This document shows positions 17,732-19,016 of a stretch of 64,000 nt of DNA, piece by piece. The position numbers and the translations under genes were made by a program. Source of the DNA: a virus. Lineage: Duplodnaviria > Heunggongvirae > Uroviricota > Caudoviricetes. The stretch's first letter is position 1. Each line of letters opens with the position of its first letter. The stretch lies in the IMG/VR virus record IMGVR_UViG_3300045988_161152; one strand, written 5' to 3'. The notes under the pieces are model-generated. The model saw only the letters and a list, made by a program, of their open reading frames with translations. It did no database searches and was not told where the DNA came from.

Positions 17732-18238
17732 TTGAGTATTTTCAATAAACACGCACACCAGGAACGTCCGTACATCGTCATAGTAGATATTGATGGGACG
17801 ATATCAGAGGCAACGGAAGACAGGCTGCATTTACTTCCACCACCTGGCAAAGGTGCATTAACAGAGCACTGGAACGAGTTTAACCTTGCCTGTGACACTG
17901 ATGCTCCCATCACTCCAGTTATTGATATGGTGCGCCAGTTGTCCGGCATTTACACCCTCTGGTTTGTAACCGGGCGCTGTGAGATAGCCAGGGATAAAAC
18001 ACGAGCCTGGTTGCGTAAGCACGTAACAAATGGGGCTGAGCCTTTGCTATCTATGCGTCCTGCCACCGATGACAGAAATGACGGTCCAGCAAAGATTGAT
18101 CTCCTTAAGAAAATTGGTCTAAGTAAAATTGCGTTCGCGCTGGAAGATAAGATTGAAGTGGCGCGTGTATTCAGGAGGCACGGCGTGCTTACGTTAATGG
18201 TCAGGGAGTATGAAAACGCGCTTCTCCATCAACAATAA
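17732..18238 (+). CDS. pap: HAD-superfamily phosphatase (class B acid phosphatase-like)
   Basis: 168 aa from a TTG start with GGAGG RBS; HAD motif I VDIDGT; symbol from recalled P1 gene order. Confidence 0.55.
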   Translation: MSIFNKHAHQERPYIVIVDIDGTISEATEDRLHLLPPPGKGALTEHWNEFNLACDTDAPITPVIDMVRQLSGIYTLWFVTGRCEIARDKTRAWLRKHVTNGAEPLLSMRPATDDRNDGPAKIDLLKKIGLSKIAFALEDKIEVARVFRRHGVLTLMVREYENALLHQQ

Positions 18239-18254
18239 TTGCTCTAATAAATAT
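18238..18254. promoter_or_regulatory. C1 operator
   Basis: ATTGCTCTAATAAATAT (16 of 17 consensus positions) directly after the pap stop. Confidence 0.55.
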
Positions 18255-18332
18255 TGATTTTTAAAACAGAGAAAGTGAAAATAAAAACATGCCGCAAGGC
18301 GCGGCATGTATCCAATCACAGGAGCTGAAAAT

Positions 18333-18419
18333 ATGAACACGGCATTCAAAATCATTATGGCCGCGATCTATTTCTGGCTGTTCTCTATCACTTTTGGCGG
18401 CATCGTCGCACATGGGTAA
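18333..18419 (+). CDS. 28-aa hydrophobic micro-protein
   Basis: ATG with AGGAG RBS at 8-nt spacing; MNTAFKIIMAAIYFWLFSITFGGIVAHG; not in ORF track (under 60 aa). Confidence 0.4.
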   Translation: MNTAFKIIMAAIYFWLFSITFGGIVAHG

Positions 18420-18428
18420 GGGGGATGC

Positions 18429-19016
18429 ATGAAAGGCGAAGTGAAAGAGCGCGGCATGATTTTTAACGATGAGATGGTCCGGGCAATTCTTGGCGGGAAT
18501 AAAACACAGACTCGCAGGATTGTTGAAGAAAAATTCTATGGACGGGCAGTGGCCGCAGAGTTGCTTGCCAAGCATTGTCCATATGGTCAACCGGGCGATC
18601 GTATTTGGGTTCGCGAAACCTACCGGGTACATGGCAAAGCGACGGACGTCGCAACGCTGGTTTATCGCGCAAGCGTGCGTAACTCCTGGACAGAACAAAC
18701 GCACCGGGTTCCGGTCGAGGTTTGTAATAAACCAGTATCAGAAAAGTGGACGCCATCAATTCACATGCCGCGCTGGGCATCGCGCATTCTTCTGGAAATT
18801 ACCAACGTGCGCGTTGAGCGGTTGAACGATATCAGCGAATGCGATGCAAGGGCTGAGGGCGCACCAACAGAATCGACCCTCATTGGCGATAAGCATTACC
18901 CAAGTTTCCGTAGCCTATGGAAATCAATTTATGGCGAAGATAGTTGGAACGCTAATCCTTGGGTGTGGGTAATCGAGTTTAAGCGTATTCAGGGGGCAAC
19001 CAGTGAGCAAAATTAA
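18429..19016 (+). CDS. ASCH-domain protein (YqfB-like)
   Basis: MIFNDEMVRAILGGNKTQTRR and C-terminal WVWVIEFKRI resemble E. coli YqfB; start may be ATG 18456. Confidence 0.6.
   Translation: MKGEVKERGMIFNDEMVRAILGGNKTQTRRIVEEKFYGRAVAAELLAKHCPYGQPGDRIWVRETYRVHGKATDVATLVYRASVRNSWTEQTHRVPVEVCNKPVSEKWTPSIHMPRWASRILLEITNVRVERLNDISECDARAEGAPTESTLIGDKHYPSFRSLWKSIYGEDSWNANPWVWVIEFKRIQGATSEQN

What the first reader, a model, noticed from the sequence alone, without database searches (positions are those of the whole stretch)
18333..18419. 28-aa hydrophobic micro-protein with a strong RBS at the head of an operon
The ORF (MNTAFKIIMAAIYFWLFSITFGGIVAHG) has an AGGAG RBS at 8-nt spacing, lies just after a C1 operator and just before the ASCH-domain gene, and is missed by length-thresholded ORF calling. 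Single-helix phage peptides of this size are often membrane-targeting effectors.
Basis: seen in the sequence. Interest (0 to 1): 0.4.

Follow-up and report, generated by a model that had tools for sequence, protein, structure and literature searches.

The report
Conserved membrane micro-protein gene in P1 phages
The 28-codon ORF is very probably a real gene for a single-helix membrane micro-protein, the first gene of a repressor-controlled early operon in P1/P7-like phage-plasmids; it is missing from the P1 and P7 reference annotations, and what it does is untested.

Summary
The window is a P1/P7-like phage-plasmid. AGGAG+ATG alone is no more frequent than chance (8 found, 7 expected). The case for a gene is comparative.

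- **Four lineages:** The ORF is the first cistron after the same operator in P1-type, Salmonella pCFSAN058588-type, an IMG/VR and Logan type, and Cronobacter phage JK004.
- **Shared layout:** All have operator/-35, -10, a stem-loop at the predicted transcript start (different stem sequences), a CAAT-repeat spacer, GGAG and ATG.
- **Selection:** dN/dS is about 0.1 where measurable. Codons 7-25 stay strongly hydrophobic. M1, F5, K6, A11, Y13 and W15 are invariant.
- **Integrity:** 148 of 148 P1-type copies with an intact leader keep the frame open.
- **Start codon:** A 4-bp indel and the three other lineages fix the start at 18333. The 44-aa GenBank versions start too early.

No Pfam, NCBIfam, PHROG, PADLOC or Rfam family matches. 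The downstream genes vary, so the peptide probably acts on its own in the membrane after C1 derepression. Its target is unknown. The "ASCH" label for the next gene is unsupported. This is an ordinary kind of feature, but a real and unannotated gene.

The parts
17732..18238 (+). pap, a HAD/PNKP-type 3'-phosphatase. It is the last gene of the preceding operon, and its stop codon overlaps the operator.
   Evidence: ORF list. Pfam PF25109 HAD_PNKP, E=2e-11. Aligns with P1/P7 pap.
18238..18254 (+). Monovalent C1 repressor operator ATTGCTCTAATAAATAT, equivalent to P1 OpmgT (former Op88) and P7 Op(hea).
   Evidence: Position-for-position alignment with the annotated protein_bind features of P1 and P7. 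Ten operator-like sites in the window against 0.06 expected. The core is invariant in all four lineages.
18239..18282 (+). Predicted sigma-70 promoters. P2pmgT has -35 TTGCTC at 18239-18244 and -10 TAAAAC at 18262-18267. P1pmgT has -35 TTGATT at 18254-18259 and -10 GAAAAT at 18277-18282.
   Evidence: Transferred by alignment from the P1 GenBank annotation. The -35 TTGATT/TTGTTT, a 17-nt spacer and an AAGAAT/AATAAT -10 recur in lineages B, C and D. The tool's own promoter scan did not call these sites. No transcript start has been mapped.
18287..18309 (+). Stem-loop ACAUGCCGC-AAGGC-GCGGCAUGU at the predicted 5' end of the mRNA. Read on the minus strand it looks like an intrinsic terminator, with a T-run at 18286-18277.
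   Evidence: Folds in every lineage at the same place with different stems: GGCCAC/GUGGCC in B and C, GGCCGC/GCGGCC in D. One A-U pair changes to G-C. Only 2 of 23 columns vary among 69 P1-type haplotypes. The T-run is absent in B, C and D.
18310..18324 (+). Unstructured CAAT-repeat spacer (ATCCAATCAC) followed by the Shine-Dalgarno AGGAG (18320-18324).
   Evidence: CAATCAATCA(C/T)nGGAGC is nearly invariant across the four lineages. The window lacks one CAAT unit relative to P1, P7 and SJ46.
18333..18419 (+). Micro-protein gene of 28 codons plus TAA: MNTAFKIIMAAIYFWLFSITFGGIVAHG. One transmembrane helix is predicted at residues 7-25.
   Evidence: Homologues of 46, 48 and 53 aa sit at the syntenic site. 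dN/dS is 0.09-0.14. Hydropathy. AlphaFold helix. 148/148 copies are open.
18418..19016 (+). Shine-Dalgarno AAGGGGGA (18418-18425) and the next cistron (ATG 18429, 195 aa). It is a homologue of P7 Upf86.8 and the N-terminal part of P1 PmgT, and is the first gene of variable region 8.
   Evidence: phrog_874, unknown function. No ASCH support. Literature on the variable region: PMC9603915.

Best explanation
The ORF is a real gene. It is the first cistron of the C1-repressed early operon that P1 annotates as PpmgT/OpmgT (former Op88).

**Expression (inferred).**
- In a lysogen, C1 sits on the operator that overlaps the -35 regions and the operon is silent.
- After infection or induction, transcription starts about 7 nt after the -10.
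- The mRNA therefore begins with a stable 5' stem-loop, which probably protects the 5' end.
- An unstructured CAAT-repeat spacer then presents a strong Shine-Dalgarno site.

**Product.**
- Translation gives a 28-residue peptide that is essentially one aromatic-rich transmembrane helix. It has a short MNTAFK head and almost no tail.
- The related lineages carry a poorly conserved acidic tail of 20-28 residues.

**Action (inferred).**
- The peptide inserts into the inner membrane. It acts there on its own, through helix-helix contact with a host or phage membrane protein or by perturbing the bilayer.
- It does not act as a subunit of the next gene's product, because the downstream genes differ between elements.

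**Shown here:** the gene structure, selection on the peptide, the conserved regulatory layout and the helix prediction.
**Not shown:** the transcript start, the role of the stem-loop, membrane insertion and any target.

The neighbouring operon genes pmgT, pmgU and pmgV are non-essential in P1, and occasional disrupted alleles of this ORF exist. It is therefore probably an accessory function rather than an essential one.
For: **1. Synteny in four lineages.** The ORF directly follows an Op88-type operator after pmgS or pap in each of these:
- P1/P7/window
- Salmonella pCFSAN058588, L009:3001-3141
- IMG/VR L014:1810-1956 and Logan L093
- Cronobacter phage JK004, L098:3501-3662

**2. Coding selection.**
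- B versus C has dN/dS 0.09-0.10, and B versus B2 has 0.14.
- A versus B or C has dN 0.23-0.41 with dS saturated.
- Second codon positions change least, 2-7 of 24.
- Seven of the 14 residues identical between A and B use different synonymous codons (read from the sequences).
- Antisense and shifted frames are closed or unconserved.

**3. The start codon is pinned.**
- A 4-bp indel puts the upstream ATGs in different frames in the window and in P1/P7/SJ46.
- In B, C and D this ATG is the first possible start after a stop.

**4. Integrity.** 148/148 P1-type copies with an intact leader keep the frame open through codon 28, and 122 peptides are identical.

**5. The N-terminal/helix core is more constrained than the tail.** Within lineage B there are 0-1 changes in residues 1-26 against 3-6 in the 20-residue tail.

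**6. Helix.** Hydropathy is 2.0-2.1 over residues 7-25. AlphaFold gives a helix at 2-27 with pLDDT 86-92 over residues 1-20.

**7. Conserved leader layout.** The stem-loop changes sequence but keeps its position.

**8. Independence from cargo.**
- The gene downstream may be upf86.8/pmgT, a convergent hsdR, a Ren-like wHTH gene, or deletion derivatives.
- pmgT-humD is a known variable region (PMC9603915).
- pmgT, pmgU and pmgV are non-essential (PMC10695390).
Against: - There is no direct evidence of transcription, translation or membrane location.
- AGGAG+ATG is not above chance on its own.
- Within the P1-type population the few ORF polymorphisms show no third-position bias: 4/4/4 by codon position.
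- Synonymous sites are unusually invariant, 2/28 against 53/133 in pap. Something other than the peptide therefore also constrains this DNA.
- Where no + strand gene follows (hsdR context), the ORF carries more amino-acid changes, 6 non-synonymous against 5 synonymous sites. That fits a role tied to the downstream operon.
- A few truncated or fused alleles exist (P0019, P0024, P0026-P0028).
- The family is confined to P1-like elements. The four lineages give limited statistical power: the codon-position chi-square p-values are 0.01-0.37.
Confidence: 0.6

Rival explanations
1. Cis-acting leader ORF. What matters is that ribosomes translate it, not the peptide. Translation would deliver ribosomes to the next start by termination-reinitiation or by unfolding of the RBS, or would prevent Rho-dependent polarity in the leader. 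The ORF would then set the expression of the downstream operon.
For: - The stop and the next start are packed tightly in every lineage. C has TGATG, D has an ATGA overlap, B has a 4-nt gap and A has a 9-nt gap.
- The downstream Shine-Dalgarno site lies inside or at the 3' end of the ORF. The only recurring feature of the tails is a glycine next to an acidic residue (LGE, QEG, QGD), and it coincides with that site.
- A valley of nucleotide diversity runs from the stem-loop through the ORF and about 50 nt into the next gene, only in the context where a + strand gene follows.
- The 185-nt leader-ORF-start region folds better than shuffles, z=-2.5.
Against: - The peptide sequence is conserved, with dN/dS about 0.1, a maintained TM helix and six invariant residues. 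A pure coupling device would not need this.
- The ORF stays intact in most of the 41 elements where only a convergent hsdR follows.
- Predicted accessibility of the downstream RBS is not consistently low (0.16-0.58). It is not consistently raised by holding the ORF single-stranded.
- The MFE structures change with the chosen ends. The two common polymorphisms do not pair and show 10 'mixed' haplotypes.
- The two roles are not exclusive.
Confidence: 0.2
2. Type I toxin-antitoxin-like module. The hydrophobic peptide is a membrane toxin. A cis-antisense RNA on the minus strand, ending at the hairpin plus T-run (18309-18277), blocks its translation.
For: - Size and hydrophobicity are in the range of TisB, Ibs, ShoB and Zor (own knowledge).
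- A terminator-like site lies on the minus strand exactly upstream of the ORF.
- There are sub-threshold Rfam matches to sRNA models on the minus strand at 18281-18376. They score 24.6 and 19.5 bits against gathering scores of 50 and 42.
- The DNA is strictly invariant at the nucleotide level in the P1 type.
Against: - No minus-strand promoter was found by the scan. The best hand-picked candidates match 8/12 or less, and they are not conserved between P1 and the window.
- The T-run is simply the complement of the + strand -10/+1 A-run. It is absent in lineages B, C and D, where the stem-loop persists.
- The Rfam hits are driven by the terminator and fall below threshold.
- No Pfam toxin family matches.
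- The Shine-Dalgarno site is not sequestered; P(unpaired) is about 0.4-0.65.
- Control is already provided by a protein repressor, and the ORF heads a polycistronic operon.
Confidence: 0.08
3. Not a gene. It is a chance open frame in the 5' untranslated leader of the pmgT/upf86.8 operon, conserved only because the leader or the recombination boundary is conserved.
For: - AGGAG+ATG is at chance frequency.
- AT-rich intergenic DNA readily encodes hydrophobic ORFs (PMC11188072).
- P1-type copies are too similar to show codon bias in their polymorphisms.
Against: - The frame, start, Shine-Dalgarno site and hydrophobic core persist at 53-74% nucleotide identity in four lineages, with a coding substitution pattern.
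- No other frame is conserved.
- There is no frameshift or stop before codon 28 in 148 copies.
Confidence: 0.05

Closest known systems
Small single-pass inner-membrane regulators of enterobacteria (AcrZ, MgrB, MgtS, KdpF, CydX; own knowledge) and the 'Entero67K' intergenic micro-proteins (PMC11188072)
   Same: - It is under 50 codons, with its own Shine-Dalgarno site and essentially one hydrophobic helix.
- It is under purifying selection and is missed by standard annotation.
- The expected mode of action is helix-helix contact with a larger membrane protein.
   Different: - There is no sequence similarity to any of them.
- It is phage-borne and held silent by the C1 repressor.
- It is the first cistron of an operon whose other genes vary.
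- No partner is known.
Type I toxins (TisB, Ibs, ShoB, ZorO, Hok, Ldr; own knowledge)
   Same: - It is a 19-50 aa hydrophobic peptide.
- It is carried on a mobile element.
- A terminator-like hairpin on the opposite strand lies next to the start in the P1 type.
   Different: - No conserved antisense promoter or terminator exists across lineages.
- The ribosome site is not sequestered.
- Control is by a repressor.
- The setting is polycistronic.
- No family match was found.
Upstream ORFs that couple translation by termination-reinitiation at overlapping stop/start codons (Huber et al. 2019, listed among the references of PMC11188072)
   Same: - TGATG and ATGA overlaps, or gaps of 4-9 nt, separate it from the next start.
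- The next gene's Shine-Dalgarno site lies in its 3' end.
   Different: - The peptide sequence itself is conserved.
- The ORF is kept where no gene follows on the same strand.
Other C1-controlled early units of P1 (for example Op51-kilA/repL, Op53-ban, Op72-lpa; own knowledge and the P1 annotation)
   Same: - It has the same 17-bp asymmetric operator overlapping a sigma-70 promoter.
- It is derepressed on induction.
   Different: The P1 and P7 annotations place pmgT/upf86.8 as the first gene and leave the roughly 180-nt leader empty. The micro-protein gene and the 5' stem-loop are not features of those records.

Membership tests
Bacterial/phage small membrane proteins (<=50 aa, single TM helix) | Short ORF with its own start codon and Shine-Dalgarno site | tested here: met
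   AGGAG lies 8 nt before ATG 18333. GGAG lies 5 nt before the ATG in lineages B, C and D. The start is fixed by the indel and by the first-start argument.
Bacterial/phage small membrane proteins (<=50 aa, single TM helix) | Conservation with a protein-coding substitution pattern | tested here: met
   dN/dS is 0.09-0.14. Second codon positions are the least variable. Other frames are not conserved.
Bacterial/phage small membrane proteins (<=50 aa, single TM helix) | One predicted transmembrane helix | tested here: met
   Mean hydropathy is 2.0-2.1 over residues 7-25 in lineages A-C. AlphaFold gives a helix at 2-27.
Bacterial/phage small membrane proteins (<=50 aa, single TM helix) | Detected translation and membrane localisation | not testable with these tools
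   This needs ribosome profiling, tagging and fractionation. No paper in the library holds the sequence.
Type I toxin-antitoxin systems | Antisense RNA with its own promoter and terminator overlapping the toxin mRNA | tested here: not met
   A terminator-like site occurs on the minus strand only in the P1 type. No minus-strand promoter was called. The T-run is absent in lineages B, C and D. The Rfam matches are below threshold.
Type I toxin-antitoxin systems | Toxin mRNA folded so that the ribosome site is blocked | tested here: not met
   The Shine-Dalgarno/start region has P(unpaired) of 0.36-0.65. The MFE leaves AGGAG almost free.
Type I toxin-antitoxin systems | Growth arrest or membrane depolarisation on expression | not testable with these tools
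   Experimental test only.
C1-controlled operons of P1/P7 | 17-bp asymmetric operator (consensus ATTGCTCTAATAAATTT) overlapping the promoter | tested here: met
   18238-18254 matches 16 of the 17 consensus positions and is co-linear with the annotated OpmgT/Op(hea).
C1-controlled operons of P1/P7 | Repression by C1 and derepression on induction | not testable with these tools
   Taken from the P1 and P7 record annotation. It was not measured for this element.
Attenuator-type leader peptides | Alternative RNA structures or a terminator between the leader ORF and the structural gene | tested here: not met
   Only 9 nt separate the stop from the next start. No + strand terminator was found at 18240-18470. 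There is no consistent occlusion of the downstream RBS.
Holins | Location in a lysis cassette next to an endolysin, with a charged C-terminal tail | tested here: not met
   The neighbours are pap and upf86.8/Ead-Ea22-like genes. The P1-type peptide ends AHG with no charged tail.
ASCH domain (label given to the downstream gene) | Match to PF04266 or an ASCH/PUA-like fold | tested here: inconclusive
   There is no Pfam, NCBIfam or PDB sequence hit. No homologue has a precomputed Pfam domain. The model has pLDDT 52 and the fold search found nothing meaningful.

The most novel reading that the evidence does not exclude
The segment is a dual-function element specific to the P1 family.

- It encodes an early membrane micro-protein that takes part in host takeover. 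It could be a repressor-gated membrane toxin or a modulator of a host envelope protein.
- The same 200 nt (stem-loop, ORF and the first codons of the next gene) would also be constrained at the nucleotide level.
- That second role would be either an RNA switch, or the fixed left edge at which cargo of variable region 8 is exchanged or deleted.

This would explain three observations: the diversity valley, the invariance of synonymous sites, and the several independent junctions at the same base of the stop codon.
Probability: 0.15. Interest if true: 0.6.

Novelty: new member of a known kind. Interest (0 to 1): 0.35.

Why it matters
- P1 is a classic, heavily used phage. P1-like phage-plasmids with this segment at full length are in about 10% of complete E. 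coli genomes (564 of 5,426).
- A conserved gene at the head of the Op88 operon is missing from the P1 and P7 reference annotations and from most RefSeq records. Where it is annotated, the start is wrong.
- Adding it corrects the operon map: the first gene is not pmgT/upf86.8.
- It gives a defined, easily testable 28-residue candidate for an early phage-host membrane interaction.
- It marks the exact left boundary of a cargo hot-spot that is implicated in carrying accessory and resistance genes (PMC9603915).
- The kind of feature, a hydrophobic micro-protein under purifying selection, is common in Enterobacteriaceae (PMC11188072). The find is therefore useful rather than surprising.

Tried and rejected
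**Family searches.**
- Pfam, NCBIfam and PADLOC gave no hits. PHROGs gave only insignificant hits (E 0.04-0.16) for all peptide versions tried.

**Exhaustive searches for more relatives.**
- A profile search of 1.84 billion representatives returned only this family.
- The species-representative genomes gave only 2 P1-type loci.
- The metagenome scan gave only P1-type copies. No fifth lineage was found.

**Antisense sRNA idea.**
- It was followed because of the minus-strand terminator and weak VrrA/GcvB matches.
- It was rejected as the main model. The T-run is absent in three lineages and no promoter is conserved.

**RNA switch or coupling structure.**
- Folding of four lineages gave no consistent masking of the downstream RBS.
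- The suspected compensatory pair (+77 G/A with +131 C/T) is not predicted to pair, and 10 haplotypes are mixed.

**Read-through fusion to the next gene.**
- The ORF is in frame with the next gene only in the P1 type, not in B, C or D. This is worked out from the coordinates. The idea was rejected.

**ASCH test for the neighbour.**
- The alignment available was too shallow (82-99% identity). The resulting model had pLDDT 52 and the Foldseek result was meaningless.

**Literature.**
- 'pmgT' is swamped by mgtC-promoter papers.
- The P1 genome paper (PMC523184) is not held.
- The peptide string is in no paper, and not in the supplements of the Enterobacteriaceae micro-proteome study.

**The 44-aa and 37-aa upstream starts.**
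- These were rejected because of the 4-bp indel.

Full report
**What the window is**

The region matches P1-family phage-plasmids at 96-99% identity. The best matches are RCS47, JL22, SJ46, P7 and P1. Identical copies of the 174-nt segment lie on 90-100 kb E. coli plasmids. The local gene order follows P7: ppp, hdmD/pmgQ, shtA/pmgR, shtB/pmgS, pap, a C1 operator, then upf86.8 and further genes.

**The observation**

- The ORF runs from ATG 18333 to TAA 18417-18419 and encodes MNTAFKIIMAAIYFWLFSITFGGIVAHG.
- AGGAG is at 18320-18324, 8 nt before the ATG.
- The operator ATTGCTCTAATAAATAT is at 18238-18254 and overlaps the pap stop. It is co-linear with the annotated P1 OpmgT (former Op88) and P7 Op(hea).
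- Such operators occur 10 times in the window against 0.06 expected.
- The AGGAG-N6-9-ATG motif is at chance level, 8 against 7 expected. On its own the ORF would not be convincing.

**Why it is a gene**

A tblastn search with the peptide found a 58%-identical ORF in Salmonella plasmid pCFSAN058588. This is a divergent P1-like element, and the ORF lies in the gap after pmgS. Further searches added an IMG/VR and Logan lineage and Cronobacter phage JK004.

| Lineage | Source | Peptide |
|---|---|---|
| A | P1/P7/window | MNTAFKIIMAAIYFWLFSITFGGIVAHG |
| B | Salmonella pCFSAN058588 | MHTVFKLAMAAFYIWIFTIVFTGIAKATPVNASEVGVRTIYCDLGE |
| C | IMG/VR L014 (Logan L093 differs at one residue) | MNTAFKLAMAAFYFWIFCIAFNGLVKAAPTLQVIYHNDAPASNQEGSF |
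| D | Cronobacter phage JK004 | MHLIFKLAITAFYAWMLTVVITSFKPDANMKASRYLGNLSASYDCDQQGDDSL |

- M1, F5, K6, A11, Y13 and W15 are invariant.
- At 53-74% nucleotide identity the frame stays open.
- dN/dS is 0.09-0.10 for B versus C and 0.14 within B. A versus B or C has saturated dS with dN of 0.23-0.41.
- Second codon positions change least.
- Shifted and antisense frames contain stops or are not conserved.
- In B, C and D this ATG is the first start after a stop.
- In lineage A, a 4-bp CAAT indel puts the upstream ATGs in different frames in different isolates. The 44-aa GenBank versions (SJ46 'membrane protein', JL22, phi456, WP_029399105.1) therefore start too early.
- JK004 gene_94 starts too late.
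- All 148 lineage-A copies with an intact leader keep the frame open through codon 28, and 122 peptides are identical.
- A few disrupted alleles exist in the protein collection.

**The product**

- Residues 7-25 have mean hydropathy of 2.0-2.1 in lineages A-C.
- AlphaFold gives one helix at residues 2-27 with high confidence, and a low-confidence tail.
- Within lineage B the core has 0-1 changes and the tail 3-6.
- The only recurring tail feature is a glycine next to an acidic residue near the C-terminus (LGE, QEG, QGD). It coincides with the Shine-Dalgarno site of the next gene.
- The functional part is therefore the short N-terminal head plus the helix.
- Topology cannot be decided from the charges.

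**The regulatory layout**

All four lineages share the same order of elements:
1. the operator with a -35 of TTGATT or TTGTTT;
2. a 17-nt spacer;
3. a -10 of GAAAAT, AAGAAT or AATAAT;
4. about 6-7 nt;
5. a stem-loop;
6. a CAAT-repeat spacer;
7. GGAG and then ATG.

The stem differs between lineages: CAUGCCGC/GCGGCAUG in A, GGCCAC/GUGGCC in B and C, and GGCCGC/GCGGCC in D. That includes one A-U to G-C change, and each version folds on its own. Using the P1 record's predicted P1pmgT promoter, the transcript would begin at the stem-loop. I infer a 5'-terminal stabilising hairpin, but this has not been shown.

Read on the minus strand, the lineage-A hairpin plus the A-run of the -10/+1 region looks like an intrinsic terminator. 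It attracts weak, sub-threshold Rfam sRNA matches. The T-run is missing in B, C and D, and no minus-strand promoter was found. The type I toxin/antisense model is therefore weak.

**Context and independence from cargo**

Several different sequences follow the stop:
- 103 copies have upf86.8/pmgT.
- 41 copies have a convergent type I hsdR.
- The remaining copies are rare deletion derivatives.

In B, C and D a Ren-like winged-helix gene follows (phrog_142, E 2e-6 to 2e-9), with stop/start overlaps of TGATG or ATGA or a 4-nt gap.

pmgT-humD is one of eight variable regions of P1-like phage-plasmids (PMC9603915). pmgT, pmgU and pmgV are non-essential (PMC10695390). The micro-protein gene is thus the last conserved element before a cargo hot-spot. 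It probably does not need a particular neighbour.

IncF plasmids carry an 84-nt fossil of the ORF (18340-18423), cut by IS1 and lying next to an hsdR gene.

**What remains unexplained**

- **Diversity valley.** Among 51 lineage-A haplotypes in the upf86.8/pmgT context, nucleotide diversity changes sharply along the region. The low stretch spans about 18276-18483.

| Segment | Nucleotide diversity |
|---|---|
| pap | 0.048 |
| stem-loop to ATG | 0.008 |
| micro-protein ORF | 0.007 |
| next gene | 0.21 |

- **Invariant synonymous sites.** The first 63 nt of the ORF are invariant. Variable third positions are 2/28 in the ORF against 53/133 in pap, p=0.0007.
- **Context dependence.** In the hsdR context the ORF varies about as much as pap and carries more amino-acid changes. 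This points to an added nucleotide-level constraint tied to the downstream operon.
- **No explanation confirmed.** Translational coupling, an RNA structure and boundary homogenisation are all possible. Folding gave no consistent mechanism.
- **Shared deletion end.** At least three independent deletions, and L094 as well, share exactly the same left end, after CATGGGTA in the stop codon.

**Comparison with known systems**

- The ORF works like the small single-helix membrane proteins of enterobacteria and resembles type I toxins in size. No family membership could be shown.
- The antisense-RNA and sequestered-RBS features that define type I systems were tested and not met.
- Hydrophobic intergenic micro-proteins under purifying selection are numerous in Enterobacteriaceae (PMC11188072). 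The kind is known; this family is new and uncharacterised.

**Verdict**

It is a real, conserved membrane micro-protein gene at the head of a C1-controlled operon, but its effector role is untested.
- Interest is moderate to low (0.35).
- The diversity valley and the fixed junction are the features most worth a follow-up.

Noticed in passing
window ~18276-18483: There is a valley of nucleotide diversity in P1-type copies, from the stem-loop through the micro-ORF and about 50 nt into the next gene. Diversity is 0.007-0.008 there, against 0.048 in pap and 0.21 downstream. Synonymous sites of the ORF are far less variable than those of pap (2/28 against 53/133, p=0.0007). The valley is not seen where a convergent hsdR follows.
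   Followed up: partly
window 18411-18419 (CATGGGTAA); loci L059, L094, L095, L096/L097: Four rare downstream contexts join the conserved block at exactly the same base, after ...CATGGGTA inside the stop codon. For three of them the joined sequence was found elsewhere in the variable region of other P1-like elements, so they are independent deletions. Two of their right ends follow a TA. The stop codon is lost and the peptide gains 10-37 residues.
   Followed up: partly
window 18340-18423; L004:3001-3084, L005:3001-3086: An 84-nt fossil of the ORF, missing its first 7 nt, was seen in IncF plasmids. In L004 it lies between an IS1 copy and a convergent type I hsdR gene. In L005 it lies next to IS1 and no hsdR is annotated in the stretch fetched. 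About 280 plasmid records match less than 80% of the 174-nt query, and the 19 listed partial matches cover just this 84-nt stretch. P1's own record notes the same similarity to R124/3 and EcoDXXI hsd loci.
   Followed up: partly
window 18309-18277, minus strand: A terminator-like hairpin plus T-run lies on the minus strand, although no minus-strand gene lies downstream in this element. In phi456-type elements it is the only terminator-like site called in the 500-nt stretch scanned beyond the convergent hsdR stop. hsdR transcripts might therefore run antisense through the micro-ORF.
   Followed up: partly
L009:3146-3415, L014:1956-2270, L098:3659-3973: In the three non-P1 lineages the gene after the micro-ORF is a winged-helix protein. 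In L009 and L014 it matches the PHROG 'Ren-like exclusion protein' family (phrog_142, E 2e-6 to 2e-9). The JK004 protein (L098) was not scanned and is judged homologous by eye. Its start overlaps or abuts the micro-ORF stop.
   Followed up: partly
window 18429-19016: The 195-aa first 'large' gene of the operon (P7 Upf86.8, the N-terminal part of P1 PmgT, phrog_874) has no Pfam, NCBIfam or PDB match. Its 120 best-scoring database relatives (of at least 8,000 scored) are 82-99% identical and all lack a precomputed domain. The ASCH label could not be substantiated.
   Followed up: yes
window 18310-18319: The window and locus L088 lack one CAAT unit of the CAATCAAT repeat in the leader, relative to P1, P7, SJ46 and most other copies. 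This looks like a slippage indel. It changes which upstream ATG is in frame.
   Followed up: yes
L098:3546-3662 (JK004 gene_94); L002:3090-3224 (SJ46 J46_0098): The database start codons for this gene are inconsistent. JK004 starts at an internal ATG, giving 38 aa. SJ46, JL22 and phi456 start 16 codons upstream inside the stem-loop, giving 44 aa. PGAP in pLAO3 instead annotates a 41-aa ORF on the opposite strand.
   Followed up: yes
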